A stretch of 64,000 nt of DNA from Candidatus Chisholmbacteria bacterium RIFCSPHIGHO2_01_FULL_52_32 (GTDB lineage: Bacteria > Patescibacteriota > Microgenomatia > UBA1400 > Chisholmbacteraceae), in NCBI GenBank assembly GCA_001816585.1, contig MHCJ01000003.1:284228-348227 (forward strand), written 5' to 3'. The translations under genes were made by a program, and so were the position numbers. Of this stretch, positions 6,166 through 57,935 are shown piece after piece. The notes beneath the pieces were generated by a model. The model worked only from the letters and a program-made list of their open reading frames with translations. It ran no database searches and was not told the origin of the DNA. Numbering within the stretch: position 1 is the stretch's first letter; the number at the start of each line of letters is the position of its first letter.

Positions 6166-7800
6166 TCAGATGAGCTCCCTCCCTGTCATCATCGGCGGTT
6201 TGGGGATATTTAACAGTTTTAACATAGTTGGTGCGATATCGGCAAGTACGCCGGTTTGCACCATGCTGCCTTTCCCGGTCGATTCTCTGTCAATAAAAAT
6301 GAACGGTACGGGAAACGTCGAGTGTTCCGTGTCTACCTGCCCGGTCTCAGGATTTAAAAGTTCTTCAGCATTCCCGTGATCTGCGGTGATGATCGTTGCC
6401 CCCCCGACGGACATGGCTTTCTGGGCGATCTGCTCCACACATTGATCGACAGTCTCGCAGGCAGCGATGGTTGCCTGCATGTTTCCGGTGTGTGCAACCA
6501 TATCCGGATTTGCAAAGTTGACGATGATGACGTTATAGATACCGGTTGCGATTCGTTCAATGACCGAGTCGGTAATCTCAAGGGCAGACATTTGAGGATC
6601 CAGGTCGTAGGTCGGGACTTTCACCGAAGGAATAATAATACGGTCTTCTCCCGGAAATGGGTCTTCCCTTAGCCCATTGAAATAGTAGGTCACGAAGCGT
6701 TCTTTTTCGGTCTCTGCCACCCTGAGCTGTCGGAGGTTGAAGTCGGCGATTATCCTTCCAAATGGCATCTCCACCGTTTGCGGCGGGTAGGCGATTGATA
6801 CCGGTAGCGCCCGCTCGTACTCTGTCATGGTTACGAAGAGGAGATTTTTGATTCTCTCTCCACGAGTAAACGGAGTGGTTTGAAGCTGCGGGTAGGCCGC
6901 GTGCTTACGAAAGTACTTGATCGCGTAGGGATCGAATGCAGGGCGCTTTTCTGCAGCAGTTTCAAAGTTCGGCAAAACAAAGGCCTTGGTAAGCTGCCTC
7001 GGTCGATCAATGCGAAAATTAAAAAAGATTACCGCATCGTTTTCCCGCACCAGTCTTTTCGGATTGTTGTTTTCATCAACAATCAACGTGGGTTCAATGA
7101 ATTCATCGGTTTTCCCGGCAGTATATGCGGACGTAACCGATTCATTTGCATCACGGGCTTTATGTGCGGCGCCGACGGTTAAGGCTTGGTAGGCTTTCTC
7201 GGTTCGCTCCCAGCGTTGGTCCCTGTCCATCGCATAAAATCGCCCCATGACAGAAGCGATCTCTCCTACACCTATAGTTTGAATTTTCGCCTGAATCTGT
7301 GAAATGTAGGTTAACGCCGAGGTCGGAGGAGAGTCCCTGCCGTCCGTAAAAAGATGAAGCGCAACGTGTTCAAGTCGATGGAGGCTCGCAAAATGGAGCA
7401 GGGCAAACAGGTGCTCGATGTTTGAGTGTACTCCCCCTGCTCCGACAAGGCCCATGAGGTGCAAGGTCGAGTTGTAAGTTTGCACATGCGCCCCGGCAGT
7501 TACGAAAGCCTGGTTTTCGAAAAAGCTGCCATCTGCAATTGACATGTTGATACGCGGTAAATCCTGGTAGACAATTTGCCCCGCACCGATGTTCAGATGG
7601 CCCGTTTCCGTGTTCCCTTCTTCCCCGTGGGGAAGACCCACTGCTTCACCGGAAGCTTCAAGTTTTGTGTGAGGAAAAGCATTCCAGTAACGATCCAGGT
7701 TCGGTGTAATCGCTCTTTCGATAGCATTGCCCGGTCCCGGTGGGGCGATGCCCCAACCGTCGAGGATCAAAAGCACAATGGGTTTCGGGATTGGGCTCAT
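6166..7800 (-). CDS. gpmI: 2,3-bisphosphoglycerate-independent phosphoglycerate mutase
   Basis: 544 aa. The N-terminus PIVLLILDGWGIAPPGPGNAI, GHLNIGAGQIVYQD and ADHGNAE are classic iPGM motifs. Confidence 0.9.
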   Translation of the reverse strand: MSPIPKPIVLLILDGWGIAPPGPGNAIERAITPNLDRYWNAFPHTKLEASGEAVGLPHGEEGNTETGHLNIGAGQIVYQDLPRINMSIADGSFFENQAFVTAGAHVQTYNSTLHLMGLVGAGGVHSNIEHLFALLHFASLHRLEHVALHLFTDGRDSPPTSALTYISQIQAKIQTIGVGEIASVMGRFYAMDRDQRWERTEKAYQALTVGAAHKARDANESVTSAYTAGKTDEFIEPTLIVDENNNPKRLVRENDAVIFFNFRIDRPRQLTKAFVLPNFETAAEKRPAFDPYAIKYFRKHAAYPQLQTTPFTRGERIKNLLFVTMTEYERALPVSIAYPPQTVEMPFGRIIADFNLRQLRVAETEKERFVTYYFNGLREDPFPGEDRIIIPSVKVPTYDLDPQMSALEITDSVIERIATGIYNVIIVNFANPDMVAHTGNMQATIAACETVDQCVEQIAQKAMSVGGATIITADHGNAEELLNPETGQVDTEHSTFPVPFIFIDRESTGKGSMVQTGVLADIAPTMLKLLNIPKPPMMTGRELI

Positions 7801-7821
7801 TGTTTGCTGGGATCTCCCTTG

Positions 7822-9105
7822 TTATGCGTTCGTCTGCGGAGCTTGGGGTTTTGCGGTAAGTTCGCTTTCTATGTCGAGAAGGCGGTTGTATTTTGCGATG
7901 CGCTCACCGCGAGCCGGCGCGCCAAACTTCGTGTAATGCGCGCCAACGCCAACGGCAAAATCAGCGATAAAGTCATCGTTGGTTTCACCCGAGCGATGGG
8001 AAACGACGACTTGCCAACCCGCATTTTTTGCAATTGTAATGACCTCAATTGCCTGTGAGATGGTGCCAATTTGGTTCGGCTTCGCCAAGATTCCCGTACA
8101 GCACTTTTCAGCAATACCTTTCAGGGTTCTTTCTTTATTCGTCGTCAGGAGATCGTCGCCAATAACAACCGTTGAGGTCCCAATTTCCTTGGTCAGGGTT
8201 GTCCAGGAACCCCAATCATCTTCGAATAGCGGATCCTCGAGAGTGTACAGATGGTACTGATCATTGAGGCCTTTGTAATAGTCAATAAATTCTTTTGTAG
8301 AAAAAGGTTCTTTCCGATCCTTGATTTGATACTTCCCTCCCTTGTAGAAATTGGAGGCGGCTACGTCGAGGCCGAGAAAGACATCCTCCCCATATTTATA
8401 CTTCGTCGTCCGAATTGCCTCGAGTATTAGCTCCAGGGCATCAGAATTGTTGTACAAGTTCGGAGCAAATCCGCCCTCGATGCCGACGCTATGGATCGCT
8501 CCGTGTTTGGTGAGGACTTGGTCGATGGCGTGATAGACTTCAACGCCCGTTTGAAGCGCTTGGGAATAGCTCATTCTGGTCGAGGGAATGATATGGAATT
8601 CCTGAAAGTCCAGGTTCCCGGCTCCGTGTTTTCCTCCGTTTATCACGTTGAACGTCGGAGTAGGAAATGTGGGCGGATCTTTGGCCAGACGGTATTTTGC
8701 GAAGAGATACTTATATACCGGTAAATTGTACGCGAGGGCTCCGGCTTTACACAGGGCTGTTGAAACGGAAAGAATGGCGTTGGCGCCCAAGCGCGATTTG
8801 TTTAACGACCCATCGAGATTAACGAGGATCTGATCGACGTCGGTTTGGCGGGTCGGATCTTTTCCGAGAATTGCCGGGCCGATGACTGCGTTTACGTTTG
8901 CAACCGCCTTCAACACCCCTTTGCCGTAGAATCGATTCTGATCGTTGTCCCGAAGCTCAACGGCTTCGTGAGTGCCAGTAGACGTTCCAGCCGGTACTGA
9001 AGCGGTTACCTTGCGCTCGTTGTCAATCGTCAGGGTTGTCTCAATTGTCGGGATTCCCCGGGAATCGAGAATCTCTTTGGCAAGGGTTTGAGTTATCTGT
9101 GCCAC
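7822..9105 (-). CDS. eno: Enolase (phosphopyruvate hydratase)
   Basis: 427 aa. It contains AKEILDSRGIPTIE, SHRSGETND and the standard enolase length. It has a GTG start with no SD, directly downstream (on the mRNA) of a heptamer repeat array. Confidence 0.9.
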   Translation of the reverse strand: MAQITQTLAKEILDSRGIPTIETTLTIDNERKVTASVPAGTSTGTHEAVELRDNDQNRFYGKGVLKAVANVNAVIGPAILGKDPTRQTDVDQILVNLDGSLNKSRLGANAILSVSTALCKAGALAYNLPVYKYLFAKYRLAKDPPTFPTPTFNVINGGKHGAGNLDFQEFHIIPSTRMSYSQALQTGVEVYHAIDQVLTKHGAIHSVGIEGGFAPNLYNNSDALELILEAIRTTKYKYGEDVFLGLDVAASNFYKGGKYQIKDRKEPFSTKEFIDYYKGLNDQYHLYTLEDPLFEDDWGSWTTLTKEIGTSTVVIGDDLLTTNKERTLKGIAEKCCTGILAKPNQIGTISQAIEVITIAKNAGWQVVVSHRSGETNDDFIADFAVGVGAHYTKFGAPARGERIAKYNRLLDIESELTAKPQAPQTNA

Positions 9106-9115
9106 GGGATAATAA

Positions 9116-9152
9116 TAAAGAATTAAGAATTATGAATTATGAATTAAGAATT
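9116..9152. repeat. Heptanucleotide tandem array (A[AT]GAATT)x5 in the eno leader / ppsA-eno intergenic region
   Basis: The sequence reads aaGAATT aaGAATT atGAATT atGAATT aaGAATT atga, i.e. period 7 with five consecutive units. Confidence 0.8.
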
Positions 9153-9178
9153 ATGACGCATGATAGTTCTGGTTTCAT

Positions 9179-11476
9179 TTATCTTCTGACGAGGCGGAGT
9201 TCAGCCTGGTAGACGGTTTCGCGCGTTTGCTCGATCGCATCCGGGCTCACCGACACACTGGTAATCCCCCACTCGACAAGCTTTTGGGTAAACTCAGGGT
9301 ACTGTGAGGGGGCCTGTCCGCATACCGAGGAGGTGATTCTTCTTTTGTTCGCCGTTTTGATGATTTTTTCAAGTGCCCACATTACGGCGGGATTTCGCTC
9401 ATCGAATTGACTCGCCACTTCTTCGTTATCCCTGTCGATGCCGAGAATGAGCATCGTGAGGTCATTGGTGCCAACCGATATTCCGTCAATCCCGACGTCG
9501 ATAAACTCATCGAGTAGGATAACGTTCGACGGGATTTCGACCATCATCCAAAACTTGAACGTGGCTGAGCGAAACAGGCCTCGGGAGGCAACGATCCTTT
9601 TTACTTCAGCCAGTTCTTTGACTGTGTGGACGAACGGTATCATCAGCCAAAGATTCTTGTGCCCGGCTTTGTTCCTCACTTTTTTTATGGCTTCAAGTTC
9701 CAGGTCAAACACCGTTTCGTCAGATATGTACCGAAATGCTCCCCTGTATCCGAGCATGGGGTTTTGCTCCTGCGGTTCATAGTGGGTACCTCCCGGCAGA
9801 TTCCTGTATTCGTTGGTTTTGAAATCCGTCGCCCGGTAAACCACAGGTTTTCCCTGAAATGCACGACAGAAGACCTCCAGCCCGTCGGCGAGTTTGTTGA
9901 TGAATTGTTGTTTTTTTCCGTCGTGAATCATCTTTTTGGGGTGGATCCCAATTTGGGCAACCATAAACTCGGCGCGCAACAGCCCTACTCCGTCGACGTT
10001 TCTTGATGCAATATCGGCAGCGAGATCCGGCTCTCCTAGGTTAACGTAAACTTTGGTTGCGGTGCTTCTTTGGGTCACAAGCCTCACCTCGCCGCGTGGC
10101 ACCGAGGGTGTGGTTACCTTTCGGGGCGAAAGTACCCCATTGAAGACCTCGCCGGTCTTGCCGTTGACCGTGATCTGTTGGCCCGTTTTCAAGGTATCGG
10201 TTGCTTTACCAGTTCCGACGACGCAGGTTATCCCGAGTTCACGCGAGACGATGGCGGCGTGGGAAGTTTGCCCGCCTTTATCGGTTACGATAGCGGTTAC
10301 TTTCCTCATTGCCGGAACGAAGTCCGGGGTTGTCATCTCGGTCACCAGCACTTCCCCTTTGAGGATTTTTCCGATTTCACGGGCAGAATGGATGATGCGG
10401 ACTTTCCCGCTTGCGATGCCAGGCGAGGCAGGATCTCCTTTGAGGATCAGTTTGAGTGATTTGGCGATGGCCCTGCCTGTAGCTTCGTCCGTTATCGATA
10501 GTTCCTTTTCTCCGAGGGTAGTGATCGGCCTCGTTTGCAGGATATAGATCTCGTCTCTATCAACGCCCCACTCTATATCCTGTGGAAAAAAATAGTGATG
10601 GTGAATTGCCTCACCAATTTTCGCGAGTTTCCCAATCTGGTCATCCGAGAGTTTCTGGGCTTTTTGTTTATTCAGAGGTACTCTCGCCTCGACATCTTTC
10701 CCGTGTTTTTTCACGAGCTCTATTTGTTGTTTGACAATGTATTTCTTGAGAATTTTATACGTTTTTTTCTCGACTATATATCGGTCCGGTGTCACTGCCC
10801 CTTGGACGATCATTTCCCCCAGCCCCCAGATTGCCTCAATAATGAGGGTGCGTTTGTCTTGTGTTACAGGGTCGACGGTAAACATGACTCCCGAAACATC
10901 GGATTGAACCATATTCTGAACGGGTATTGCGATTCCGACTTTGAAATGATCAAATCCTTTTTCCGCGCGATAAAAAATGGCTCGGGGTTCGAAGAGTGAT
11001 GCCCAAGCCTCACGGATGGCATCGACCACGTTGGCGGCCCCTTTCACATTAAGGAAGGTTGCTTGTTGTCCTGCAAAAGAGGCTCCGGGAAGATCCTCTG
11101 CCGTAGCTGATGAGCGGACGGCAACGAGCGGAGCACTGTCATGCTTATCGAGAGATCGGTAGTGCTTTATCATCGCATCGGCCAGGTCCGGCGGAACTTC
11201 GGCGTTGGTGATCAACTTTTTGACGCGTTGGCTGGCTTGGTGAAGTGCTGTTGTATCCTGAACGTTCAGGCCTGTAAGGATGGATTTAATCTTCGGCCGA
11301 AGGTCATTGTGGTCGAGGACATAGAAATAGGCCGGCGCCGTGACGATGAAGCCGTTCGGGACGGGAAATCCCGCTTTGACCATTTCCCCCAGATTCGCTC
11401 CTTTACCGCCGACGAGCGGGATATCGTCTTTATCGATCTCGCGAAACCAGACCACATAGTCATTGGAACTCACCAT
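9179..11476 (-). CDS. ppsA: Phosphoenolpyruvate synthase (pyruvate, water dikinase)
   Basis: 765 aa. It has an N-terminal ATP-grasp with LVGGKGANLGEM, a central phospho-His domain (GGQTSHAAIVSRELGI) and a C-terminal PEP-utilising TIM barrel. Confidence 0.85.
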   Translation of the reverse strand: MVSSNDYVVWFREIDKDDIPLVGGKGANLGEMVKAGFPVPNGFIVTAPAYFYVLDHNDLRPKIKSILTGLNVQDTTALHQASQRVKKLITNAEVPPDLADAMIKHYRSLDKHDSAPLVAVRSSATAEDLPGASFAGQQATFLNVKGAANVVDAIREAWASLFEPRAIFYRAEKGFDHFKVGIAIPVQNMVQSDVSGVMFTVDPVTQDKRTLIIEAIWGLGEMIVQGAVTPDRYIVEKKTYKILKKYIVKQQIELVKKHGKDVEARVPLNKQKAQKLSDDQIGKLAKIGEAIHHHYFFPQDIEWGVDRDEIYILQTRPITTLGEKELSITDEATGRAIAKSLKLILKGDPASPGIASGKVRIIHSAREIGKILKGEVLVTEMTTPDFVPAMRKVTAIVTDKGGQTSHAAIVSRELGITCVVGTGKATDTLKTGQQITVNGKTGEVFNGVLSPRKVTTPSVPRGEVRLVTQRSTATKVYVNLGEPDLAADIASRNVDGVGLLRAEFMVAQIGIHPKKMIHDGKKQQFINKLADGLEVFCRAFQGKPVVYRATDFKTNEYRNLPGGTHYEPQEQNPMLGYRGAFRYISDETVFDLELEAIKKVRNKAGHKNLWLMIPFVHTVKELAEVKRIVASRGLFRSATFKFWMMVEIPSNVILLDEFIDVGIDGISVGTNDLTMLILGIDRDNEEVASQFDERNPAVMWALEKIIKTANKRRITSSVCGQAPSQYPEFTQKLVEWGITSVSVSPDAIEQTRETVYQAELRLVRR

Positions 11477-11575
11477 ACACCCAATATAACTTAGCGAAAG
11501 CTCTTGTTCAATCCCAGAAAAAGGAATAGTCTCTTATGGCTTAAGAGGGAAAGTCATGATGAGGCTTGGGTGGAG

Positions 11576-12646
11576 CTAGTTTTTCAGTTTTTCTTTGAAG
11601 TAGTCAACCCAGGGAATGGGAGCCGGATTTTGGTCATAAAGAATTGAAAGGTACAAATTCGTTACAGCCCCGAACTGAATTAGCTCGAACGCCTGAGAAA
11701 GCTTTGTTTCTGAGTGCAAGCTGATCTCAATCGACGCTATCTTGTTCTTCATCGTTATCTCTTTCGTAATTGCAAACCGCAATTTTATTTTCTCTGAGTA
11801 AAGCGATGATTCAGCGAAAATAACAAAGAGGTGCTCCGGATTGGTACTTGGATGTTTGAGACCTTCCAAAAGGTGATGATTGAGTTCGGGAATCTGGAAA
11901 TCAGTGGAGAAGGCTTTGGCATTTTCGTTTAACTGATTGTTGATTGTATGCGTTGAACCGACGAGATGTTCAGCTGAGATATATACAATTATTCGGCCGA
12001 GCATTTGCTTTGCAAGTTTCTTTGCGGGATTGTGTGGAACTGCCACCGTGGGATTCGTCTTTACCCAGACTTCCGTCATTGCTTTTGCGGCTGTTTCAAT
12101 CTCAGCCTGACTCAATTGAATGACTCCAATCTTGGCCGCAAGTGCCAGTACTCCAACGACGTTGTACCCGATTGCCATGCGAGGCTGGTTCGACGGATTG
12201 TGGGTCGGCAGTACTTGGTAGTAAGGGACTCTTTCTCGTTTGGCAAGGTCTATGAGTGGTCCGCCTGTGCCAATAGCGATCCATTTTGCCCTGGCCTTGA
12301 TTGCTTGATTTGCATTACTTAACGTTTCTTCCGTTGTGCCGGAATAGCTCGCGCAAATGACGAGCGATTTCTCATTTACGAAGGCGGGAATATCATATCC
12401 GTTGATTCTGGTGAATGGATACCTTATCTCGTTGCCGTATACCGACTGGATGACTCTTGCCCCCAAGCCGGTGCCCCCCATGCCGGTCATCACAATATTG
12501 TCGATTTCACTGTAGGCAGGGGGAATTGTTACGGCACTTGCTTCATCCCAGGCATGAAGGCATTGCTTGGCTAAGGCTTCGATGGAGCCCAATACATTTT
12601 GAACATCGATCTTACGAATTTCTTCAATACTGTCGAGTTTATCCAT
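11576..12646 (-). CDS. Bifunctional phosphoglucose/phosphomannose isomerase (archaeal-type PGI/PMI, SIS domains)
   Basis: 356 aa with two SIS domains (MTGMGGTGLGARVI ... ICASYSGTTEET). The fold resembles archaeal/Aquificae-type PGI/PMI. Confidence 0.7.
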   Translation of the reverse strand: MDKLDSIEEIRKIDVQNVLGSIEALAKQCLHAWDEASAVTIPPAYSEIDNIVMTGMGGTGLGARVIQSVYGNEIRYPFTRINGYDIPAFVNEKSLVICASYSGTTEETLSNANQAIKARAKWIAIGTGGPLIDLAKRERVPYYQVLPTHNPSNQPRMAIGYNVVGVLALAAKIGVIQLSQAEIETAAKAMTEVWVKTNPTVAVPHNPAKKLAKQMLGRIIVYISAEHLVGSTHTINNQLNENAKAFSTDFQIPELNHHLLEGLKHPSTNPEHLFVIFAESSLYSEKIKLRFAITKEITMKNKIASIEISLHSETKLSQAFELIQFGAVTNLYLSILYDQNPAPIPWVDYFKEKLKN

Positions 12647-12715
12647 GGATTTGATTGTACGAGGTTAACCCTTATGCAGCAAGTGATTGGGAATTGATGC
12701 AGTCTGTTTTGATCC

Positions 12716-14089
12716 CTATGCTTGCCGTATTGTTCCGTGACTGCTGAGAAAGCTGACAATTTCAGTCGTATGTTCTGCAAGGATTTTATGGTTGTCCGCT
12801 TCAATATTGAGTCGAAGCAATGGTTCGGTATTGGAAGGTCGGACGTTAAACCACCAGTCTGTAAACCAGACACTAATCCCATCTAGCCAATCCGTTGATC
12901 TGGCCTTGTTCTTATACGTTGTTTCCAACCTTCGCATAACACCGAGTTTATCTTTTACCATAAAGTTAATTTCACCGGAGCTCGGATACTTATCATATTG
13001 CCTTACGAGATCAGAAAGCTTTTGGTTCTTTACGGACATCAGCTCCAAAACGAGTAAAGCGGCGATGATTGCAGAATCAGCATAGAAAAAATCACGAAAA
13101 AAGTAATGACCGGAATGCTCGCCGCAAAACAACCCGTTGTGCTTTCGCATTGCTTCTTTGATCAGCGTGTGTCCGACGCGGACACGGACGGGTTTACCGC
13201 CCCGCTTTTTGATGATTTCAGGGACAACCCGTCCGACGATTGCATTGTAGAGGATCGTTTGTTTCGGATGTTTTCTGAGAAGGTTTTCGGTGATCAGGGC
13301 GGTCATAATGGTGCCGGAGACGATTCGCCCGGTTTCATCAACCAGGAAAACCCTATCCCCGTCGCCATCGAATGCCATGCCAACGTCCGCCCCAACTCTT
13401 TTCACCGCTTTTACCGTATCCAGCATGTTTTTTGCTTCGATAGGACTCGGGATGTGATTTGGGAACGATCCGTCGAGCTCGTAGAAGATCCTCGTGACTT
13501 TCCAAGGCAGATGGTCTTCAACGGCGGGCATAAAAAACCCTCCCATCCCGTTTCCGGTATCAACCGCCACCTTGAACGGCTTCATATTTTTTACGTTGAT
13601 GAATTTGAGAACGTGTTTGACAAAATCGTTAAGAACCCGACGCTTCGAAAGTCTGCCTGTCTCTTTCGATGTTTTCTCAAGGCTTTTGGTTGACACGGCG
13701 AGATCCCGGATTTCATAGATCCCGCTATCGCCCGAGACCGCGATAGCCCCGCGTTTCACGATTTTCATGCCATTGTACTGGGGCGGATTGTGGGAGGCGC
13801 TGATGGTTACCGCCAGGTCTTCATTGTACTTGCCGGCCGCAAAATACAGCATGTCCGTTGAAATCAGTCCGAGGTCGACCACGTCAACACCCGCCTTGAG
13901 CATGGTGTTTACAAAGATCTGGTGAAGTTTCGGCGAAGACATCCGCATGTCTCTTCCTACCTGGATTGTTCTGGGTTGGAAACAGACGGCGATTGCCTGT
14001 GCCACCCGTATCAGACCTGCCTCATCGAGCTCTCCGGGGATGATTGCCCGGATGTCGTAATCTCTGAAGATCTCCGGACTTAGGCGCAT
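12716..14089 (-). CDS. Phosphoglucomutase/phosphomannomutase (alpha-D-phosphohexomutase family)
   Basis: 457 aa. It has the active-site Ser loop TISASHNPPQYNGMKI and the metal-binding FDGDGDR motif. Confidence 0.85.
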   Translation of the reverse strand: MRLSPEIFRDYDIRAIIPGELDEAGLIRVAQAIAVCFQPRTIQVGRDMRMSSPKLHQIFVNTMLKAGVDVVDLGLISTDMLYFAAGKYNEDLAVTISASHNPPQYNGMKIVKRGAIAVSGDSGIYEIRDLAVSTKSLEKTSKETGRLSKRRVLNDFVKHVLKFINVKNMKPFKVAVDTGNGMGGFFMPAVEDHLPWKVTRIFYELDGSFPNHIPSPIEAKNMLDTVKAVKRVGADVGMAFDGDGDRVFLVDETGRIVSGTIMTALITENLLRKHPKQTILYNAIVGRVVPEIIKKRGGKPVRVRVGHTLIKEAMRKHNGLFCGEHSGHYFFRDFFYADSAIIAALLVLELMSVKNQKLSDLVRQYDKYPSSGEINFMVKDKLGVMRRLETTYKNKARSTDWLDGISVWFTDWWFNVRPSNTEPLLRLNIEADNHKILAEHTTEIVSFLSSHGTIRQA

Positions 14090-14110
14090 CTTTTCTTCGT
14101 AAGGCTCATT

Positions 14111-14812
14111 CTAGATTTCGCTTAAAATCAAGTCAAGCATCGATGAAAGGGGCAGAATGCTCTTTCCGGTCTTGACCGCAACATCCGTCCGGTAGAGGCT
14201 TTCGTGGAGCATCTGAAGGTCTTTTGAAGTAAATTTCCCGGCTTGAGCCAGGAGTCGCTGTCTTTGCCACTTTTGCATGGCATGGAGTTCTTTTCCGTTG
14301 TAATCCGCTGCCATGAGGAGGCTTGTAACCCTCCTTGAGAGCATGTAGAAAACGAGCTCGGGTGCGTCCTGTTTTAACGTTTCGTGGTAATAACCCAGCA
14401 ATTGCCCTGTATTTTTCGGGTAAATTGAGTCAAGGAAGCGAAAGATCGCTTTGCTTAATTTAAACAGTCGAACCGTGGCCGTTTTATTTACCAATCGTAG
14501 TTGGGCGGTGGTGAGTTCTTTACGTTCCCAAAGGATTACCTCTCCCTTTGGACTTTCGACGGCAATATAGCGCACAAGCTCCTCCTTGGTTTTTGACCGG
14601 ACCCTTGTCAATACGTTTTCGATGATGACCAACCGAACGGTCCCAAAAAGGCTCTCGCTCTCGAGGGCTTGCTTGAGATCTCCAAGCGATACCTTCTCGC
14701 CATTAAGTCTCACGATATCTTTGATCCCTGACCTTCTGGCTTTTTCCACACTCTCCCTGAGTGCACTACGGCTAGCTACTATCTGGTCGCCATGAAGGAT
14801 TAGAAGAGACAT
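14111..14812 (-). CDS. holA: DNA polymerase III delta subunit-like (HolA), short form
   Basis: 233 aa. The N-terminal pattern LILHGDQIVASRSALRE ... LGDLKQALESESLFGTVRLVIIENV matches the delta N-domain. It is shorter than canonical HolA. Confidence 0.5.
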   Translation of the reverse strand: MSLLILHGDQIVASRSALRESVEKARRSGIKDIVRLNGEKVSLGDLKQALESESLFGTVRLVIIENVLTRVRSKTKEELVRYIAVESPKGEVILWERKELTTAQLRLVNKTATVRLFKLSKAIFRFLDSIYPKNTGQLLGYYHETLKQDAPELVFYMLSRRVTSLLMAADYNGKELHAMQKWQRQRLLAQAGKFTSKDLQMLHESLYRTDVAVKTGKSILPLSSMLDLILSEI

Positions 14813-14854
14813 GAGGGTATAGTCCTTCGTCCGCCAGCTGGCGGATCAGGATAA

Positions 14855-14890
14855 AGGTTTAGGGTTTAGAACCTTGGGATTTATATTTTT
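14855..14890. repeat. Heptamer array (GGTTTAG / TTTAGGG-like) spanning the stop of the upstream gene and the holA leader
   Basis: The sequence reads AGGTTTA GGGTTTA GAACCTT GGGATTT ATATTTT, i.e. period 7. Confidence 0.6.
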
Positions 14891-15245
14891 GAAATAGTGC
14901 TTCCACTGTCTGGTGATCAATACGGCGTCCCCTTCCCCGATGGGGAACGAGAGCCCCGGAGAAGGTTTTGGGGATATGCAAGAGCTCGTGGATCAACACT
15001 CTCGTCTTGTCATCCTCCGGCAACCTGTCAAACCTTTCAGAGAGAATCTCGATGACGTAGTGGGGCTTAAGGCGAAGTGCGAGCTGCCAGATTCGGGGAA
15101 AACTCCAGATTCTCGCCCTTGCCCGAGAGGAAGAACCAAAACTTCTGAAACAAATGACTTTTGTGGCGTCAATATGAGGAAATTTCATTACTCGGAGAAT
15201 TGCAGAGAGCTTTTCCTGTATATCTGGAGCTTTGTGAAAATCCAT
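14859..15245 (-). CDS. Small predicted zinc metallopeptidase-like protein (HExxH motif; SprT/YgjP-like)
   Basis: 128 aa with HELLH followed by a basic stretch. No further family assignment is possible from sequence alone. Confidence 0.4.
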   Translation of the reverse strand: MDFHKAPDIQEKLSAILRVMKFPHIDATKVICFRSFGSSSRARARIWSFPRIWQLALRLKPHYVIEILSERFDRLPEDDKTRVLIHELLHIPKTFSGALVPHRGRGRRIDHQTVEALFQKYKSQGSKP

Positions 15246-15263
15246 ACCAGGATCTTGGAAATG

Positions 15264-15524
15264 TTACTCGGTTGCTTTATAGACCGGTGTTCCTTCGTAG
15301 ACTTTTTTATCCACCTTCAGTCCTACCGATTGTCCTTTCTTTGCCTCTTTGACCTTCTCGTGATCTATTTCCATCGATTCCACGGTTTGGACCAGTTCAT
15401 CACCCTCGGCTTTCCCGGCAATTTTGATGGTATCCCCTACCTTTAATTGCCCCGTTACATCGACGACGGCAACACAGATTTTGTCATAGTAGTGCGCCAC
15501 CTTCCCAACCGCTTTGTCAGCCAT
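15264..15524 (-). CDS. Small beta-barrel protein resembling EF-Tu domain II (translation elongation factor-like protein)
   Basis: 86 aa. The pattern GKVAHYYDKICVAVVDVTGQLKVGDTIKI ... GQSVGLKV is typical of stand-alone EF-Tu domain-2-like proteins. Confidence 0.4.
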   Translation of the reverse strand: MADKAVGKVAHYYDKICVAVVDVTGQLKVGDTIKIAGKAEGDELVQTVESMEIDHEKVKEAKKGQSVGLKVDKKVYEGTPVYKATE

Positions 15525-15592
15525 TTATGCTCACCTCCGATCTCCCATTTACAATACATTCACTTTGAATTAAGTATAACACAACTTTTGTT

Positions 15593-16819
15593 TCACTCCC
15601 TTGGAAATTGGTACAATTTGTCGCCGAGATACCCCGTCACTTCCGGCCTTATGAGCGGCCCCCTTAGGAGTCTTGCGGAGCGGAGGCTTGCGAATCCATG
15701 CTTCTTATTGATTGCATCGACCGCACTCCAGAGTTTTTCTCTCTTTTGCCAGCTTTCAAGCCAACACGCCGTGAGGTTTGTTACCGGAGAAAGGAGGCCT
15801 ACATGAACGCCGAAGCGAATCACGGCAAAGCTCCGCTGCCAACCTTTATACAAACCGTTGTAGATGAGGTCGAATACCTCATCCGGATGACGAACGTGGT
15901 ACTTGAGCGTCCGATGCCGATACCAGATTTTCTCCTCTCCCTCCAGGAAAATGGATATTTGACGGCCGGCAAGATTCATTTGGCGAATCTTGTAGGTTGC
16001 TTCCTCGACAAGGTTGCGGATGATCTTTTGAATCTCTTCTTCTGAATCGCAGAGGCGAAACCCCGTAATGGTGCGGCCGACACCCTTCATGTATAGATTG
16101 GAATCAAGCAGTCTTAAGAGATGCGATTCCTCACCGATGGAAATCCTCTTGAGCTCCGGTCCCCAAAACGGTCCGAAACGCAGCTTGAGAATTTTATCCT
16201 CAAGCTTTCTGATTTGAAGGATGTTCGTCACCCCCGTGTTGATGAGTTTTTCTTCCAAGCGAGGGCCAATCCCGCAGATGTCTCGCGGCTTGCATCCCGC
16301 CAAGATTTCATCAAGATTTTCCTTGCTAATCCGAAAGTAGCCGCCTTTCGGAGCATGGTCTCCGGCAAGCTTGGCAAGCGTGCGGTTATACGAAATCCCA
16401 ATTGAGGCGGTGACCCAATTTCCGAGCTTCGCATAGATCTTTTCCTGAATCTTGACCGCAAGGGTTTCGGCTGAACCGCAGAGGCGGATACAATTTGAGG
16501 TGTTGATGAACGCTTCATCGAGTGAGAATAGGGTAACGTCCGGGCTAAATGATTCAACGAGCGCAAAGAAACGTTTTGTGTAATCGAGGTATTTGTCAAA
16601 ATCTGCTTTGATAAGGATGAGACGGGGGGCAAGTTTTCTGGCATCATGGAGGTTGGTGCCGGTTTTGATCCCAAGCCTTTTGGCTTCTTTACTTGCGGCA
16701 ATAATGCACATTCTGCCTATGTCTTTCACAATCCCTACCGGCTTTCCCCGTAAGAATGGGTTTTGTTGCTGCTCTACTGTGGCAAAATATGAGTTGAGGT
16801 CTACGTGGAGGATGGTCAT
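15593..16819 (-). CDS. dinB: DNA polymerase IV (Y-family translesion polymerase)
   Basis: The protein contains ILHVDLNSYFATVEQ, SLDEAF and the Y-family palm/fingers. The true start is likely the ATG at complement 16817-16819 (MTILHVD...), which aligns with the E. coli DinB N-terminus. The longer ORF to 16831 uses TTG. Confidence 0.85.
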   Translation of the reverse strand: MTILHVDLNSYFATVEQQQNPFLRGKPVGIVKDIGRMCIIAASKEAKRLGIKTGTNLHDARKLAPRLILIKADFDKYLDYTKRFFALVESFSPDVTLFSLDEAFINTSNCIRLCGSAETLAVKIQEKIYAKLGNWVTASIGISYNRTLAKLAGDHAPKGGYFRISKENLDEILAGCKPRDICGIGPRLEEKLINTGVTNILQIRKLEDKILKLRFGPFWGPELKRISIGEESHLLRLLDSNLYMKGVGRTITGFRLCDSEEEIQKIIRNLVEEATYKIRQMNLAGRQISIFLEGEEKIWYRHRTLKYHVRHPDEVFDLIYNGLYKGWQRSFAVIRFGVHVGLLSPVTNLTACWLESWQKREKLWSAVDAINKKHGFASLRSARLLRGPLIRPEVTGYLGDKLYQFPRE

Positions 16820-16822
16820 GGG

Positions 16823-16885
16823 AATGTTCAATGTTTAATGTTTAATTCTTAAATCTTAAATCTTGAATCTTGAATCTTCAATCTT
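16823..16885. repeat. Heptamer array, 9 units (AATGTTY / AAATCTT / GAATCTT), abutting the dinB start codon
   Basis: The sequence reads aatgttc aatgttt aatgttt aattctt aaatctt aaatctt gaatctt gaatctt caatctt, i.e. period 7. It begins 3 nt from the dinB ATG on the mRNA, and there is no SD. Confidence 0.85.
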
Positions 16886-16888
16886 GTG

Positions 16889-17137
16889 TCATCCTTCCAT
16901 CCAAATCTGTTCCAGGATCCAGGTTTCGGTGGTGCGGTTGTATTCGAGAAGGTAGAGATTTCCGTTTGAGAGGACGGCATAACGGCGTTTCTTAATACTC
17001 TCATCTTTGACCTCGTGGATGCTCGTGATTTCCTCAATGGGATATGCGCGGTTGTGCCAATGGAACGTTTTGGGGACGAATGAGGTTTCTCTAAAAATTC
17101 CCAGAACACTTATTGTTTCGCCTATTGTTTGGTACAT
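16889..17137 (-). CDS. Hypothetical small protein (82 aa) between ruvB and dinB
   Basis: It is co-oriented and tightly spaced with ruvB and dinB. It has no recognisable motifs, so its role is unknown. Confidence 0.35.
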   Translation of the reverse strand: MYQTIGETISVLGIFRETSFVPKTFHWHNRAYPIEEITSIHEVKDESIKKRRYAVLSNGNLYLLEYNRTTETWILEQIWMEG

Positions 17138-17197
17138 CTGACCAAACTATACCCGAATTTTGATGGGGGTGTCAACAGCGATTTTCGGATGATGAGT

Positions 17198-18202: not shown

Positions 18203-18206
18203 GAGC

Positions 18207-19270: not shown

Positions 19271-19290
19271 TGTAACACGTCTTCTGAGAC

Positions 19291-19719
19291 TTAAGAAAAT
19301 GTCTGTCCGTGGTGCTTTCGGGCTCTGGCAACTTTGAGCTCCAGGACCGCCTTTTTTAGCGAGGCTTCGGCGAGGAGGATTTCCGTACGGGATACCCTTT
19401 GCTTTAAAAGTTCTTCAGCTCTGGTTTTGGCTTCCTCGGCTTTTCGGATATCGATCTCCTCTGCCCTGACGGCGCTGTCGACGAGGATGGTGACCGTATT
19501 TTCGGATGAAACGTCAATAAATCCGGCCCCGGTCACGAGTTCAATAGTCTGATCACCTTTTCGAACTGTGATTGTTCCCGTATTGAGACTCGAGAAGAAT
19601 GGCGTATGATGAGCCAGGATCGTGACCGCTCCTTCTGAAGCATAGGCGGTTACCGACTCCGCCGTGTCCTGGTAGAGCACGGTGTCTTGAGAGATGACTT
19701 CAAGCGAGAAGAGTTCCAT
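19291..19719 (-). CDS. atpC: F1 ATP synthase epsilon subunit
   Basis: 142 aa with an N-terminal beta-sandwich and a C-terminal helical hairpin, at the end of the atp operon. Confidence 0.85.
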   Translation of the reverse strand: MELFSLEVISQDTVLYQDTAESVTAYASEGAVTILAHHTPFFSSLNTGTITVRKGDQTIELVTGAGFIDVSSENTVTILVDSAVRAEEIDIRKAEEAKTRAEELLKQRVSRTEILLAEASLKKAVLELKVARARKHHGQTFS

Positions 19720-19725
19720 AATAGG

Positions 19726-19802
19726 CAGTTAATAGTTAAAAATTAAAAGTTAAAAGTTAAAAACCCAAATCAAGCAGTTAAAAGTTCAAAATTATAAGTT
19801 TG
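19726..19802. repeat. Heptamer array, about 11 units (AGTTAAA family), in the atpD-atpC intergenic gap
   Basis: The sequence reads cagttaa tagttaa aaattaa aagttaa aagttaa aaaccca aatcaag cagttaa aagttca aaattat aagtttg, i.e. period 7. It is directly upstream of the atpC start, which has no SD. Confidence 0.85.
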
Positions 19803-19859
19803 GTTCTATATAATAACCTCTGTTCCCATTGTTTCCTGTAAACTTTTGACTTTAGGCTA

Positions 19860-21726
<1,867 letters not shown>

Positions 21727-27108: not shown

Positions 27109-27117
27109 CAGAGTTAA

Positions 27118-27159
27118 TAGGGTTTTGGGTAAAGGGTTTAGGGTATAGGGTTTAAAGGC
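27118..27159. repeat. Heptamer array (TAGGGTT / TTTAGGG-like), 6 units, downstream of tRNA-Glu and of the tkt stop
   Basis: The sequence reads tagggtt ttgggta aagggtt tagggta tagggtt taaaggc, i.e. period 7. Confidence 0.8.
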
Positions 27160-35929: not shown

Positions 35930-35963
35930 TACTATCAGGAAACAGGAAAAATACCAAGGTTAC

Positions 35964-57922: not shown

Positions 57923-57935
57923 GAAGGATTGTGTG

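What the first reader, a model, noticed from the sequence alone, without database searches (positions are those of the whole stretch)
9116..9152. Recurrent degenerate heptanucleotide tandem arrays in intergenic regions (at least six loci), each with a different 7-mer unit
Period-7 arrays occur at 9116-9152 (AWGAATT), 14855-14890 (GGTTTAG), 16823-16885 (AATCTTR), 19726-19802 (AGTTAAA), 27118-27159 (TAGGGTT) and 63395-63435 (GTAAGGA). The units differ between loci but the 7-nt phase is maintained over 5-11 units. Three arrays end within 3-6 nt of a start codon that has no Shine-Dalgarno (eno GTG, dinB ATG, atpC ATG). This suggests a role in translation initiation, transcript stability or promoter architecture rather than random AT-rich spacer. 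The arrangement recalls cyanobacterial STRR heptamer repeats, but the gene content here is not cyanobacterial. Arrays this regular are also potential slipped-strand or phase-variation substrates.
Basis: seen in the sequence. Interest (0 to 1): 0.6.

Follow-up and report, generated by a model that had tools for sequence, protein, structure and literature searches.

The report
Dispersed 7-base tandem repeats between genes
The 7-base tandem repeats are real and far beyond chance: they are repeats of a kind already known in cyanobacteria and sulfur bacteria, here found in an uncultivated candidate-phylum bacterium, where they have wedged into tight gene junctions and replaced the ribosome-binding sites of three housekeeping genes.

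Summary
Four of the six claimed arrays are robust: 9110-9153, 16823-16885, 19727-19800 and 27117-27154. One is marginal (63400-63427) and one has only two copies (14856-14869). Period 7 is the only period from 2 to 15, apart from its multiple 14, that gives arrays: 5 found against 0.11 expected. All lie in the 7% of the window that is non-coding.

The window comes from Candidatus Chisholmbacteria (Patescibacteria/CPR). The arrays are heptanucleotide simple-sequence repeats of the kind known from cyanobacteria (STRR), Beggiatoaceae (TAACTGA) and Xanthomonas.

They change by whole units. Two strains 99.4% identical differ by a single small indel in 8.4 kb, and it is exactly one heptamer.

They also form dispersed families. 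A 96-nt composite is 92% identical between the rplU leader of this genome and the dinB leader of another species. The dinB array recurs before a CBS-domain gene in a third species.

Relatives have 0-13 nt junctions where this genome has arrays. The eno, dinB and atpC leaders lack a Shine-Dalgarno sequence and are almost structure-free.

A role in translation is plausible but not shown. Other arrays lie between convergent gene ends. Hypervariable phase variation is not supported. This is a new member of a known kind, of moderate interest.

The parts
9110..9153 (-). Heptamer array in the ppsA-eno spacer. The mRNA-sense units are CATAATT/CTTAATT x6, with no G. It ends 5 nt before the eno GTG.
   Evidence: TRF period 7, 6.3 copies, 86% matches. 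Sequence. The orthologous junctions in L001 and L002 overlap or are 6 nt long. The same AAGAATT/ATGAATT units occur in a distant Patescibacteria locus, L070: 96.8% over 31 nt.
7822..9105 (-). eno (enolase). Its GTG start follows the array directly and there is no SD.
   Evidence: Pfam Enolase_N and Enolase_C. N-terminal alignment with relatives. Initiation-region folding energy -0.3 kcal/mol and anti-SD duplex +2.9.
9179..11476 (-). Gene upstream of eno: PEP synthase / pyruvate phosphate dikinase family (ppsA).
   Evidence: Pfam PPDK_N, PEP-utilizers and PEP-utilizers_C.
14856..14869 (-). Two-copy heptamer (GGTTTAG x2 on the + strand; CTAAACC x2 in mRNA sense). It overlaps the stop codon of the metallopeptidase-like gene and lies 43 nt upstream of the holA-like ATG (14812). 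It is a seed, not an array.
   Evidence: Sequence. Not called by TRF. Same GGGTT/AACCC unit family as the 27117 array and L091 3302-3332.
16823..16885 (-). Composite array that fills the spacer between the 82-aa gene and dinB. mRNA sense: TGA-CAC-(AAGATTN)x5-AAGAATT-(AAACATT)x2-GAACATT-CCC-ATG.
   Evidence: TRF. Sequence. It is conserved at the orthologous site in L001. It recurs before a non-orthologous CBS-domain gene in L002: 88.9% over 63 nt. There is a one-unit indel between strains L001 and L092. More distant relatives have no spacer here.
15593..16819 (-). dinB (Y-family DNA polymerase). Its ATG lies 3 nt after the array and there is no SD.
   Evidence: Pfam IMS and IMS_C. 71% and 69% amino-acid identity to L001 and L002. 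N-terminus MTILHVD. Initiation-region folding energy -1.6 kcal/mol.
16889..17137 (-). Conserved 82-aa gene of unknown function, first cistron of an operon with dinB. Its 3' end (GGAAGGA) is the ancestral SD of dinB.
   Evidence: Alignment A1. No Pfam hit. In L094 and L093 it sits 1-6 nt from the dinB ATG.
17146..17175 (-). Sigma-70-like promoter (TTGACA-18-TATAGT) of the operon formed by the 82-aa gene and dinB. This places the dinB array inside the mRNA.
   Evidence: 11 of 12 consensus matches. The TTGACA and GGGTATAGTTTGG motifs are conserved in L002.
19727..19800 (-). Array in the atpD-atpC spacer (19720-19859). mRNA sense: degenerate TTTGAAC/TTTTAAC units, then (TTTTAAC)x5, ending 7 nt before the atpC ATG. 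The core is 19727-19762.
   Evidence: TRF period 7 x5.1 and period 21 x3.4. Sequence. The orthologous spacers are about 10 nt long in L001 and L002. It shares the AACTTTT unit and polarity with the rplU-leader and L091 dinB-leader element.
19291..19719 (-). atpC (ATP synthase epsilon subunit). ATG start with no SD.
   Evidence: Pfam ATP-synt_DE_N and ATP-synt_DE. N-terminus MELFSLE. Anti-SD duplex +2.2 kcal/mol.
19860..21248 (-). atpD (ATP synthase beta subunit), upstream of the array.
   Evidence: Pfam.
27117..27154 (+). G-rich array (TAGGGTT/AAGGGTT/TAGGGTA) between the 3' end of tRNA-Glu (27109, + strand) and the tkt stop codon (27177, - strand), that is between convergent gene ends. It contains a canonical G-quadruplex motif at 27120-27143.
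   Evidence: TRF period 7 x5 and period 14 x2.6. Sequence. tRNAs. G4 pattern. The same family occurs as a perfect (GAGGGTT)x13.9 array 8 kb beyond the window (L096 14006-14102).
63400..63427 (.). Weak purine-rich period-7 stretch (GTAAGGT GTAAGGA ATAAGGA AGAGGAA) in a 513-nt region between convergent genes. Marginal.
   Evidence: TRF score 33, 76% matches. Detected only at the relaxed threshold. No Rfam match at E<=1.
35936..35949 (-). Another two-copy heptamer (TTTCCTG x2 in mRNA sense), 6 nt upstream of the 1152-aa gene's putative TTG start.
   Evidence: Exact tandem duplication. Upstream sequence.

Best explanation
The arrays are heptanucleotide simple-sequence repeats. They belong to the class of long SSRs in which 7-nt units predominate, as in cyanobacterial STRRs, the Beggiatoaceae TAACTGA repeats and the Xanthomonas/Nostoc GGGNATC repeats.

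Shown:
1. They are real, specific to period 7 and confined to non-coding DNA.
2. They grow and shrink by whole units, which is the signature of slipped-strand mispairing.
3. They fall into a few unit families that recur at non-orthologous loci and in other genomes. These are AAGATTY/AAACATT/AAATATT, AAGAATT/ATGAATT, AAAGTTN/AACTTTT, NAGGGTT and GATAGCA. So they also spread by some form of copying or lateral transfer.
4. In this genome they sit in gene junctions that are 0-13 nt long, or overlapping, in relatives.
5. The eno, dinB and atpC arrays now make up most or all of the leader. The ancestral SD sits in the 3' end of the upstream gene, and the arrays put it 45-130 nt away from the start. 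The leader is A/U-rich (17% GC), has no SD and is almost structure-free.

Inferred:
- These three genes are translated from an unstructured leader without an SD. This is a mode that the organism evidently already uses, because most of its genes lack a strong SD.
- The arrays are mainly self-propagating or neutral passengers, and selection filters them for harmlessness. A/U-rich, non-folding families persist in 5' leaders. The long G-rich arrays lie between convergent 3' ends, although C-rich sense copies of that unit also occur in two leaders.
- Any tuning of translation is a by-product rather than the reason they exist.

Why the unit is 7 nt is not resolved here. The published idea is a polymerase-slippage preference.
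For: Period-7 specificity and excess over chance.

Lineage-specific abundance of period-7 arrays per 100 kb:
- 7.1 in Chisholmbacteria-like loci
- 15 in other Patescibacteria
- 30 in Omnitrophota
- 0.3 in 877 kb of other phyla.

Out-of-sample confirmation: three more arrays lie in the 8.9 kb beyond the window.

Slippage: L092 and L001 are 99.4% identical over 8,427 nt, and the single small indel is one AAACATC unit.

Insertion into tight junctions.

Dispersal:
- 91.7% over 96 nt between the rplU leader of this genome and the L091 dinB leader
- 88.9% over 63 nt between the window dinB array and the L002 array before the CBS-domain gene
- 96.8% over 31 nt between the eno array and L070
- 16 array pairs share a consensus unit, against 2.8 expected.

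Leaders without an SD or structure.

Not translation-specific:
- Arrays lie at convergent 3' ends (27117; L096 14006; 63400).
- Arrays lie in frame inside an ORF in L070.
- The eno and atpC arrays are absent from L001 and L002.
- L091 and L002 carry different units at the same dinB site.

Precedents: heptamer SSR excess and the slippage hypothesis of Mrazek et al. 2007, as summarised in PMC4679880 and PMC4692102. TAACTGA repeats abutting start codons without an SD: PMC4679880.
Against: - The AAGATTY/AAACATY units are retained between the window and L001. This is despite four-fold degenerate sites in ruvB, atpD and dinB being saturated at 27-35% identity. The array is also the best-conserved 120 nt of the alignment from the 82-aa gene through dinB. 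A purely neutral SSR should have drifted, so this points to selection on the sequence or to recent transfer.
- All five copies of the two best-defined families abut an ATG (0-11 nt) in the same orientation: window, L001 and L002 for one family, and the rplU leader and the L091 leader for the other. That is more orderly than random insertion predicts.
- No copying mechanism was identified. There are no target-site duplications, only imperfect (71-74%) inverted arms.
- Translation from these leaders has not been measured.
Confidence: 0.55

Rival explanations
1. The arrays are selected translation-initiation leaders. Tandem A/U-rich heptamers would give an unstructured landing platform that replaces the SD, possibly by binding ribosomal protein S1 or a cold-shock-domain protein. 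They would be kept, and copied between genes, because they set translation levels.
For: - Three arrays abut start codons that lack an SD and have the least structured initiation regions in the window: -0.3, -1.6 and -4.1 kcal/mol against a median of -8.75.
- The leaders fold no better than shuffled controls (z = +0.4 to +1.6).
- Unit sequences are conserved although synonymous sites are saturated.
- The same composite sits in the same orientation against the ATG of non-orthologous genes.
- The same proposal was made for the TAACTGA repeats (PMC4679880).
- Cold-shock proteins bind U/T-rich heptamers with nanomolar affinity (PMC7704496).
Against: - Units differ widely between loci, so one sequence-specific binder cannot serve them all.
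- Arrays also occur between convergent gene ends and after a tRNA.
- The AAGAATT family occurs in both orientations relative to the gene (eno versus L070).
- The eno and atpC arrays are absent from orthologous junctions of equidistant relatives.
- Any AT-rich repeat is trivially unstructured.
- Other genes here initiate without either an SD or an array.
Confidence: 0.2
2. The composite arrays are small non-autonomous mobile cassettes, in the manner of MITEs or cyanobacterial small dispersed repeats. They would insert in front of start codons and move between co-occurring CPR genomes. Slippage would only remodel them afterwards.
For: - 92% identity over 96 nt between non-orthologous loci of two species whose RuvB proteins are 75% identical.
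- The AAGATTY/AAACATT/AAATATT composite is found at dinB in two species and before the CBS-domain gene in a third.
- The rplU, L091 and atpC elements have imperfect inverted arms, an AAAGTT arm and an AACTTT arm.
- A hybrid contig, L081, joins L002-type and window-type sequence. This shows at least that the two species co-occur and may recombine.
Against: - No target-site duplication or sharp conserved termini were seen.
- The arms are only 71-74% complementary and low in complexity.
- No transposase or integrase was linked to them.
- One probe for the 96-nt element found nothing in viral contigs.
- Only two or three copies per family were sampled.
Confidence: 0.15
3. The arrays are DNA-level protein-binding sites or promoter architecture. 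Examples would be operator arrays for a repressor that binds contiguous 7-bp heptads, as the omega protein of plasmid pSM19035 does (my own knowledge), or UP-like AT tracts.
For: - Three heptamers span 21 bp, which is two helical turns, and TRF also reports period-21 versions.
- Weak sigma-70-like matches (9 of 12) fall inside the eno array.
Against: - The dinB and atpC arrays lie inside operons. The dinB array is downstream of a strong, conserved promoter.
- The promoter-like matches are at the level expected for AT-rich DNA.
- Units differ at each locus.
- No candidate binding protein was identified.
- Arrays also occur at convergent 3' ends.
Confidence: 0.05
4. The arrays are contingency (phase-variation) loci. 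Frequent changes in copy number would switch or tune expression, as the (ATCTTTC)n repeat does in the 5'-UTR of Haemophilus influenzae hmw1A.
For: - The arrays lie in 5' leaders.
- A one-unit change was seen between two close strains.
- hmw shows that heptamer number in a 5'-UTR can set expression (PMC12721329).
Against: - No length or base variation was found in any array among 10 contigs of the window species at 99.8-100% identity, from different samples.
- The genes are housekeeping genes (eno, atpC, dinB, rplU), not surface or virulence genes.
- There is no repeat-containing hairpin as in hmw.
Confidence: 0.04
5. The pattern is chance low-complexity AT-rich spacer or an assembly artefact.
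For: The 63400 array and the 14856 repeat are weak on their own.
Against: - 5 arrays were found against 0.11 expected, and only at period 7.
- The arrays are identical in 10 contigs assembled from other samples.
- Three further arrays lie just outside the window, one with 13.9 perfect copies.
Confidence: 0.01

Closest known systems
Long simple sequence repeats with heptanucleotide units (Mrazek, Guo and Shah 2007, as summarised in PMC4679880 and PMC4692102)
   Same: - Tandem 7-nt units, longer than composition predicts.
- Intergenic location.
- 7 is by far the commonest period.
- Sporadic, lineage-specific abundance.
- Slippage dynamics.
   Different: - Described for Burkholderia, cyanobacteria, actinobacteria and Xanthomonas. 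No paper in the searched library reports them in Patescibacteria or Omnitrophota.
- Here the arrays are composites of several unit types, and they are shared between non-orthologous loci.
TAACTGA direct repeats of marine Beggiatoaceae (MacGregor 2015, PMC4679880)
   Same: - Heptamer direct repeats.
- Mostly within a few nt upstream of start codons.
- They overlap the expected ribosome-binding site, and canonical SD sequences are rare there.
- The downstream genes include housekeeping and ribosomal-protein genes.
- The same unit is shared with distant phyla, with no transfer mechanism known.
   Different: - One dominant unit (TAACTGA) at 169 loci, with 2-6 copies each. Here there are several unit families and 5-14 copies.
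- TAACTGA itself is absent. The best match in the atpC leader has 3 mismatches in 14, no better than chance.
Cyanobacterial STRR sequences (short tandemly repeated repetitive heptamers of Calothrix/Nostoc; cited in PMC4692102; unit sequences from my own knowledge)
   Same: - Dispersed families of tandem heptamers in non-coding DNA.
- Several unit families per genome.
- Transcribed as parts of mRNAs.
   Different: - Different units: STRR1-3 are CCCCAGT, TTGGTCA and CAACAGT.
- Different phylum.
- The genome here is about 1.2 Mb and very compact. The arrays therefore fill whole gene junctions rather than lying in long spacers.
G-quadruplex-forming GGGAATC / GGGGAYT heptamer repeats of Xanthomonas and Nostoc (Rehm et al. 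2015, PMC4692102)
   Same: - The NAGGGTT family has G3 tracts every 7 nt, a canonical G4 motif. It comprises window 27117-27154 and (GAGGGTT)x13.9 at L096 14006-14102.
- Intergenic location.
- Length and sequence vary between relatives.
   Different: - The unit sequence differs.
- G4 formation was not tested here.
- Only this one family is G-rich.
Haemophilus influenzae hmw (ATCTTTC)n 5'-UTR repeat (PMC12721329)
   Same: A heptamer SSR transcribed as part of a 5'-UTR, where repeat number can set expression.
   Different: - hmw needs a long hairpin between the repeats and a G-rich arm, cleaved by RNase III. It is hypervariable and controls an adhesin.
- The leaders here are structure-poor.
- They are invariant among the sampled strains of this species.
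- They precede housekeeping genes.

Membership tests
Heptanucleotide long SSR (LSSR sensu Mrazek 2007) | Head-to-tail copies of a 5-11 nt unit, longer than expected for the genome's composition | tested here: met
   TRF found 4-6 arrays of 3.4-6.3 copies. 5 arrays against 0.11 expected in block shuffles.
Heptanucleotide long SSR (LSSR sensu Mrazek 2007) | Period 7 predominates over other periods, and the arrays are non-coding | tested here: met
   Only period 7 and its multiple 14 give arrays in the window. All robust arrays are intergenic, in 7.1% of the sequence. Period 7 accounts for 70 arrays, against 29 for period 6 and 21 for period 9, in 73 loci.
Heptanucleotide long SSR (LSSR sensu Mrazek 2007) | Copy number changes by whole units (slippage) | tested here: met
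   L092 and L001 are 99.4% identical over 8.4 kb, and the only small indel is one 7-nt unit. No change was seen among 10 strain-level contigs of the window species.
Cyanobacterial STRR | Tandem heptamers in dispersed families in non-coding DNA | tested here: met
Cyanobacterial STRR | Unit sequences STRR1-3 (CCCCAGT, TTGGTCA, CAACAGT; from my own knowledge) | tested here: not met
   The TRF consensus units in the window are TAAGAAT, AATGTTT, TTAAATC, AGTTAAA, ATAGGGT and AAGGAAT. None is a rotation or complement of an STRR unit. An Omnitrophota locus, L039, does carry TTGGTCA x2.
Cyanobacterial STRR | Host is a (heterocystous) cyanobacterium | tested here: not met
   The nearest genomes are Ca. 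Chisholmbacteria / Patescibacteria.
Beggiatoaceae TAACTGA repeats | The unit is TAACTGA | tested here: not met
   No tandem TAACTGA. Matches with up to 3 mismatches are at chance level: 5 against 2.95 expected.
Beggiatoaceae TAACTGA repeats | Forward-oriented repeats within a few nt of a start codon, replacing a recognisable SD | tested here: met
   Met for eno, dinB and atpC, and for rplU just outside the window. Not met for the arrays at 27117 and 63400.
Phase-variable contingency SSR (hmw type) | Repeat number is hypervariable among closely related strains | tested here: not met
   No differences in any array among 10 contigs at 99.8-100% identity. A single one-unit change was seen in another species pair. 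Read-level heterogeneity could not be tested.
Phase-variable contingency SSR (hmw type) | The repeat forms a long 5'-UTR hairpin, an RNase III substrate | tested here: not met
   Leader folding energies are -0.3 to -4.1 kcal/mol. Z-scores against shuffles are +0.37, +1.62 and +1.0.
G-quadruplex heptamer repeats (GGGNATC type) | At least four G3 tracts separated by short loops | tested here: met
   27120-27143 reads GGGTTTTGGGTAAAGGGTTTAGGG. L096 14008 onwards is (GGGTTGA)n.
G-quadruplex heptamer repeats (GGGNATC type) | The sequence actually folds into a G4 | not testable with these tools
   Needs CD or NMR spectroscopy, or polymerase-stop assays.
MITE-like or small dispersed mobile repeat | Near-identical copies at non-orthologous loci | tested here: met
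   91.7% over 96 nt. 88.9% over 63 nt and 96.8% over 31 nt.
MITE-like or small dispersed mobile repeat | Terminal inverted repeats and target-site duplications | tested here: inconclusive
   There are only imperfect internal inverted arms, 71-74% over 26-34 nt. No duplication is visible at the compared filled and empty junctions.

The most novel reading that the evidence does not exclude
The composite heptamer arrays would be portable translation leaders that need no SD. These would be cassettes of about 60-130 nt that are copied in front of start codons of unrelated genes (dinB, a CBS-domain gene, rplU, atpC, eno). They would pass between co-occurring Patescibacteria species, displace the ancestral Shine-Dalgarno site and then be tuned by unit slippage. 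That would be a mobile cis-regulatory module for translation in ultra-small bacteria. It might also explain the unexplained dispersal of heptamer repeats in cyanobacteria and Beggiatoaceae.
Probability: 0.15. Interest if true: 0.75.

Novelty: new member of a known kind. Interest (0 to 1): 0.45.

Why it matters
Heptamer repeats have been known since 1990 (STRR) and shown to be the commonest long SSR in bacteria since 2007. Yet neither the reason for the 7-nt unit, nor how the same units reach many loci and distant phyla, nor any function is established.

This locus extends the phenomenon to Patescibacteria, and the comparison loci extend it to Omnitrophota. In these compact genomes, at the junctions examined here (dinB, eno, atpC), the array makes up most or all of the spacer. 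Filled and empty junctions can therefore be compared directly.

Three observations make the open questions testable:
- A one-unit indel is the only small indel between two near-identical strains.
- 89-92% identical composites sit at non-orthologous genes of different species.
- Arrays displace the SD of essential genes (eno, atpC).

If the arrays prove to be active leaders, they would bear on how SD-independent initiation works in candidate-phylum bacteria.

Tried and rejected
1. Rfam at gathering thresholds over the whole window, and at E<=1 over 38950-39700 and 62900-63500, found only five tRNAs. No known RNA family covers any array.
2. Hairpin or riboswitch-like structure in the leaders is rejected. 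They fold no better than shuffles.
3. Promoter function: only 9-of-12 consensus matches lie inside the eno array, as expected for AT-rich DNA. The strong promoter lies upstream of the 82-aa gene.
4. TAACTGA membership is rejected.
5. Strain-level copy-number variation in the window species: none in 10 contigs.
6. My first comparison suggested that dinB was only 33% identical to its relatives, hinting at gene replacement. That was my own frame error, because the start is 16819 and not 16821. The true identity is 69-71%.
7. L080, a contig that diverges inside dinB, and L081, a hybrid of L002-type and window-type sequence, may be assembly chimeras. They were not used as evidence for recombination.
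8. Viral-contig scans: the 96-nt element gave no hit. AAGATTY x3 hits 39 viral contigs, many with a 21-nt periodicity that suggests coding heptad repeats. These are uninformative and were not pursued.
9. My greedy ORF caller overcalls ORFs across arrays in other loci, so the '25 of 44 arrays intergenic' figure is a lower bound and was not relied on.
10. The literature search found no report of heptamer repeats in Patescibacteria or Omnitrophota. The library covers open-access papers only.
Full report
OBSERVATION

Tandem Repeats Finder over the 64-kb window reports period-7 arrays at:
- 9110-9153 (6.3 copies)
- 16823-16846 plus 16842-16885 (3.4 and 6.3 copies of two different units)
- 19727-19762 (5.1 copies, with a degenerate continuation to 19800 scored as period 21)
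- 27117-27154 (5 copies)
- 63400-63427 (3.9 copies, 76% matches), which is weak.

The sixth claimed array (14855-14890) is only two exact copies of GGTTTAG at 14856-14869.

A self-match scan over periods 2-15 finds arrays only at period 7 and its multiple 14. At a threshold of 16 or more matches out of 21 there are five arrays. The expectation is 0.11 in 200 shuffles that preserve composition within 50-nt blocks. Exact tandem duplications number 174, 49, 23, 13, 1 and 3 for periods 4-9. Eight of the 13 period-7 cases lie in the 7.1% of the window that is non-coding.

The same sequences occur without a single difference in the arrays in ten contigs assembled from other samples.

ORGANISM AND GENE CONTEXT

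RuvB (17198-18202, minus strand) is 78% and 71% identical to two Patescibacteria MAGs. One of them is Ca. Chisholmbacteria RIFCSPLOWO2_01_FULL_49_14. The 82-aa protein next to the dinB array is annotated in NCBI as a Ca. Chisholmbacteria hypothetical protein and lies on a 1.16-Mb contig.

Almost all genes in 1-55 kb are on the minus strand. Read in mRNA sense, the arrays lie as follows:
- between ppsA and eno
- between a conserved 82-aa gene and dinB
- between atpD and atpC
- downstream of tRNA-Glu, facing the 3' end of tkt
- in a 513-nt region between convergent genes.

N-terminal alignments with five relatives fix the start codons at eno GTG 9105, dinB ATG 16819 and atpC ATG 19719. The arrays end 5, 3 and 7 nt before them. 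A strong, conserved sigma-70-type promoter (TTGACA-18-TATAGT, 17175-17146) precedes the 82-aa gene, so the dinB array is intercistronic RNA.

WHAT RELATIVES SHOW

Synteny from 6.1 to 26.9 kb is conserved in L001 and L002.

Where this genome has arrays, relatives have tight junctions:
- atpD|atpC is about 10 nt.
- ppsA|eno overlaps or is 6 nt.
- In four more distant relatives the 82-aa gene and dinB overlap or are 1-6 nt apart.

In those relatives an SD-like sequence often lies just before the ATG. Some of these sequences sit in the 3' end of the upstream gene. Examples are GAAGGA before dinB in L094 and GGGAGG before atpC in L094. The arrays therefore sit between the ancestral SD and the start codon.

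At the dinB junction every genome that has a spacer has heptamer-type arrays, but the units turn over:
- window and L001 have AAGATTY, then AAACATY (and AAATATT in L001)
- L002 has AATTTCT and a 9-mer, AATTAGGTC
- L091 has AAATTMA, AACTTTG, AACCCTA and TGCCTAG.

The six Chisholmbacteria species sampled are roughly equidistant (RuvB 70-78% identical). Four of them carry arrays.

SLIPPAGE

L092 is a strain of the L001 species: 99.4% identity over 8,427 nt with 42 mismatches. The only small indel in that alignment is exactly one AAACATC unit of the array, 2 copies against 3. This is direct evidence of whole-unit gain or loss.

In the window species, ten contigs at 99.8-100% identity show no change in any array. 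The arrays are the most indel-prone sites, but they are not hypervariable at this resolution.

DISPERSED FAMILIES

The units are not unique to their loci.

1. The composite (AAGATTY)n-(AAGAATK)-(AAACATT)n-(AAATATT)n precedes dinB in the window and in L001. In L002 it precedes a non-orthologous CBS-domain gene between atpG and atpD. The window and L002 copies are 88.9% identical over 63 ungapped nt.

2. Extending the window by 8.9 kb (locus L096, the same genome) reveals three more period-7 arrays:
   - GATAGCA x6.7. The same unit occurs in the L002 spacer between dinB and the 86-aa gene.
   - A perfect (GAGGGTT)x13.9 between convergent gene ends. This is the same GGGTT family as 27117.
   - A 130-nt composite in the ftsW-rplU spacer.

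3. That rplU leader matches the spacer between the 82-aa gene and dinB of L091, a different species and a different gene, at 91.7% over 96 ungapped nt (E = 1e-31).

4. The eno array units (AAGAATT/ATGAATT) recur twice in a distant Patescibacteria locus, L070, at up to 96.8% over 31 nt.

5. Across 68 arrays from all loci, 16 pairs share a consensus unit, against 2.8 expected under a composition-preserving null.

Four-fold degenerate sites in ruvB, atpD and dinB are only 27-35% identical between these species, which means they are saturated. Such similarities cannot be neutral retention. They imply copying or transfer, or selection on the sequence.

No target-site duplication or sharp termini were seen. 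The rplU, L091 and atpC elements have imperfect inverted arms, an AAAGTT arm and an AACTTT arm, 71-74% complementary.

LINEAGE SPECIFICITY

Period-7 arrays per 100 kb:

| Group | Arrays per 100 kb |
|---|---|
| Chisholmbacteria-like loci | 7.1 |
| Other Patescibacteria loci (almost all in three loci) | 15 |
| Four Omnitrophota loci | 30 |
| 877 kb from other phyla | 0.3 |

In the other phyla, periods 6 and 9 (coding repeats) dominate instead.

CONSEQUENCES FOR EXPRESSION

Among 42 genes, the three that follow arrays have the least structured initiation regions. Their folding energies are -0.3, -1.6 and -4.1 kcal/mol, against a median of -8.75. They have no SD: duplex energies with the anti-SD sequence are +2.9, +0.4 and +2.2, against a median of -4.05. 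Their leaders are 17% GC. Whole leaders fold no better than dinucleotide shuffles, with z-scores of +0.37, +1.62 and +1.0.

Only about a third of the genes in the window have a strong SD, and some relatives have AT-rich, SD-less eno leaders without any array. Initiation without an SD therefore seems normal here, which would make arrays in leaders tolerable.

eno and atpC are core genes. Their translation from these leaders is an inference, not an observation.

INTERPRETATION

The best-supported reading is that these are heptanucleotide SSRs of the known LSSR/STRR kind. They expand by slippage, spread as a limited vocabulary of unit families, and persist wherever they do no harm. A/U-rich, non-folding families persist in leaders. 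The long G-rich arrays, which carry G4 motifs, lie between convergent 3' ends.

Three points argue against a purely translational purpose:
- Some arrays are nowhere near a start codon.
- The eno and atpC arrays are absent from orthologous sites in relatives.
- In L070, arrays lie in frame inside an O-antigen-ligase-like ORF.

Two points argue against pure neutrality:
- The dinB array is the best-conserved stretch of its alignment despite saturated synonymous sites.
- All five copies of the two best-defined families abut an ATG in the same orientation.

I therefore give 0.55 to 'selfish or neutral SSR families filtered by selection, with SD-less initiation as a tolerated consequence'. I give 0.20 to 'selected leaders' and 0.15 to 'mobile cassettes'. 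The DNA-binding, phase-variation and artefact explanations receive small residual probabilities.

COMPARISON WITH WHAT IS KNOWN

- Mrazek et al. 2007 reported that heptamers are the commonest long SSR in many bacteria and proposed a polymerase-slippage preference (summarised in PMC4679880 and PMC4692102).
- MacGregor 2015 (PMC4679880) described TAACTGA repeats at 169 loci in a Beggiatoaceae genome. Most lie a few nt upstream of start codons with no SD. They are shared with cyanobacteria and Bacteroidetes by an unknown route. She proposed S1, Csp or CsrA as binders. This is the closest analogue in position and in the open questions, but the unit is absent here.
- Rehm et al. 2015 (PMC4692102) described G4-forming GGGAATC repeats, which parallel the NAGGGTT family.
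- The H. influenzae hmw (ATCTTTC)n repeat (PMC12721329) shows that a heptamer SSR in a 5'-UTR can set expression. It works through a hairpin and RNase III, which these leaders lack.
- I found no report of such repeats in Patescibacteria or Omnitrophota.

VERDICT

This is a genuine, statistically strong feature whose kind is already known: a new member in a new lineage. It adds useful evidence, namely unit-wise slippage, cross-locus and cross-species copies, and displacement of the SD. No function has been demonstrated.

Noticed in passing
window 357-977 (+): The first gene of the window is a LexA homologue (LexA_DNA_bind plus Peptidase_S24, according to the precomputed Pfam hits). Together with the operon of the 82-aa gene and dinB, and its strong promoter at 17175-17146, this suggests an SOS-type regulon in this Patescibacterium. 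No LexA box was searched for.
   Followed up: no
window 16889-17137 (-): A conserved 82-aa protein with no Pfam hit always sits immediately upstream of dinB in Chisholmbacteria and relatives (17 homologues found). In distant relatives it overlaps the dinB start, and the junction sequence suggests translational coupling. It may be an accessory factor of the Y-family polymerase.
   Followed up: partly
window about 56000-63000: A block with 58-59% GC, against about 49% elsewhere. It encodes large proteins on the + strand with no Pfam hits (620, 132, 736 and 266 aa) and an M23 peptidase-domain protein. It may be a horizontally acquired island or a cell-surface or predation module.
   Followed up: partly
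L096 14006-14115 (same genome, about 3.2 kb beyond the window end): A perfect (GAGGGTT)x13.9 array followed by (AGGGTAT)x2.6, lying between the convergent 3' ends of a signal-peptidase gene and parB. It is the longest and cleanest heptamer array seen and carries a canonical G-quadruplex motif.
   Followed up: partly
L070 16223-17770 (distant Patescibacteria MAG): Heptamer arrays (AAGAATT/ATGAATT, CGTACAA, ACGTGGT) lie in frame and free of stop codons inside a 515-aa membrane-protein ORF that looks like an O-antigen ligase. They encode peptides such as LKIMNYELRIKNYG. Upstream of the likely start there are three copies of a 45-nt repeat. The Pfam check failed because I gave the wrong frame, and I did not repeat it.
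   Followed up: partly
L081 1-6255 versus 6256-20249: A 201-kb ENA contig switches inside atpD from L002-type sequence, which carries the L002 heptamer array before the CBS-domain gene, to 99.85% window-type sequence. A cluster of mismatches marks the junction. This is either an assembly chimera of two co-occurring Chisholmbacteria species or a real recombinant.
   Followed up: partly
L033, L034, L037, L039 (Omnitrophota loci): These loci have the highest density of period-7 arrays seen, about 30 per 100 kb. The units are more GC-rich (AGTAGGC/TGCCTAC, CCGCAAC, TACCCGC, CTTGGAG) and occur in both orientations. Several abut ATG starts. One locus carries TTGGTCA x2, which is the cyanobacterial STRR2 unit.
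   Followed up: partly
L001 11524-12205 versus L092 684-708: Between two strains 99.4% identical, L001 carries about 680 nt between ruvB and the 82-aa gene where L092 has 23 nt. This is an insertion or deletion of unknown content.
   Followed up: no
window 39009-39638, 54970-55446 and 58328-58691: These non-coding stretches (630, 477 and 364 nt) are unusually long for such a compact genome. The first gave no Rfam match at E<=1, and only short ORFs are present.
   Followed up: partly
L097-L135 (IMG/VR contigs): AAGATTY x3 occurs in 39 viral contigs, including giant-virus MAGs. The matches are often spaced 21 nt apart in long runs, which may be coding heptad repeats. Any relation to the bacterial arrays is unknown.
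   Followed up: no
L002 about 8245-8480: The atpD homologue of L002 aligns only to residue 381. It is followed by 190 nt that still look like atpD coding sequence, which suggests a frameshift or an assembly error in that MAG.
   Followed up: no
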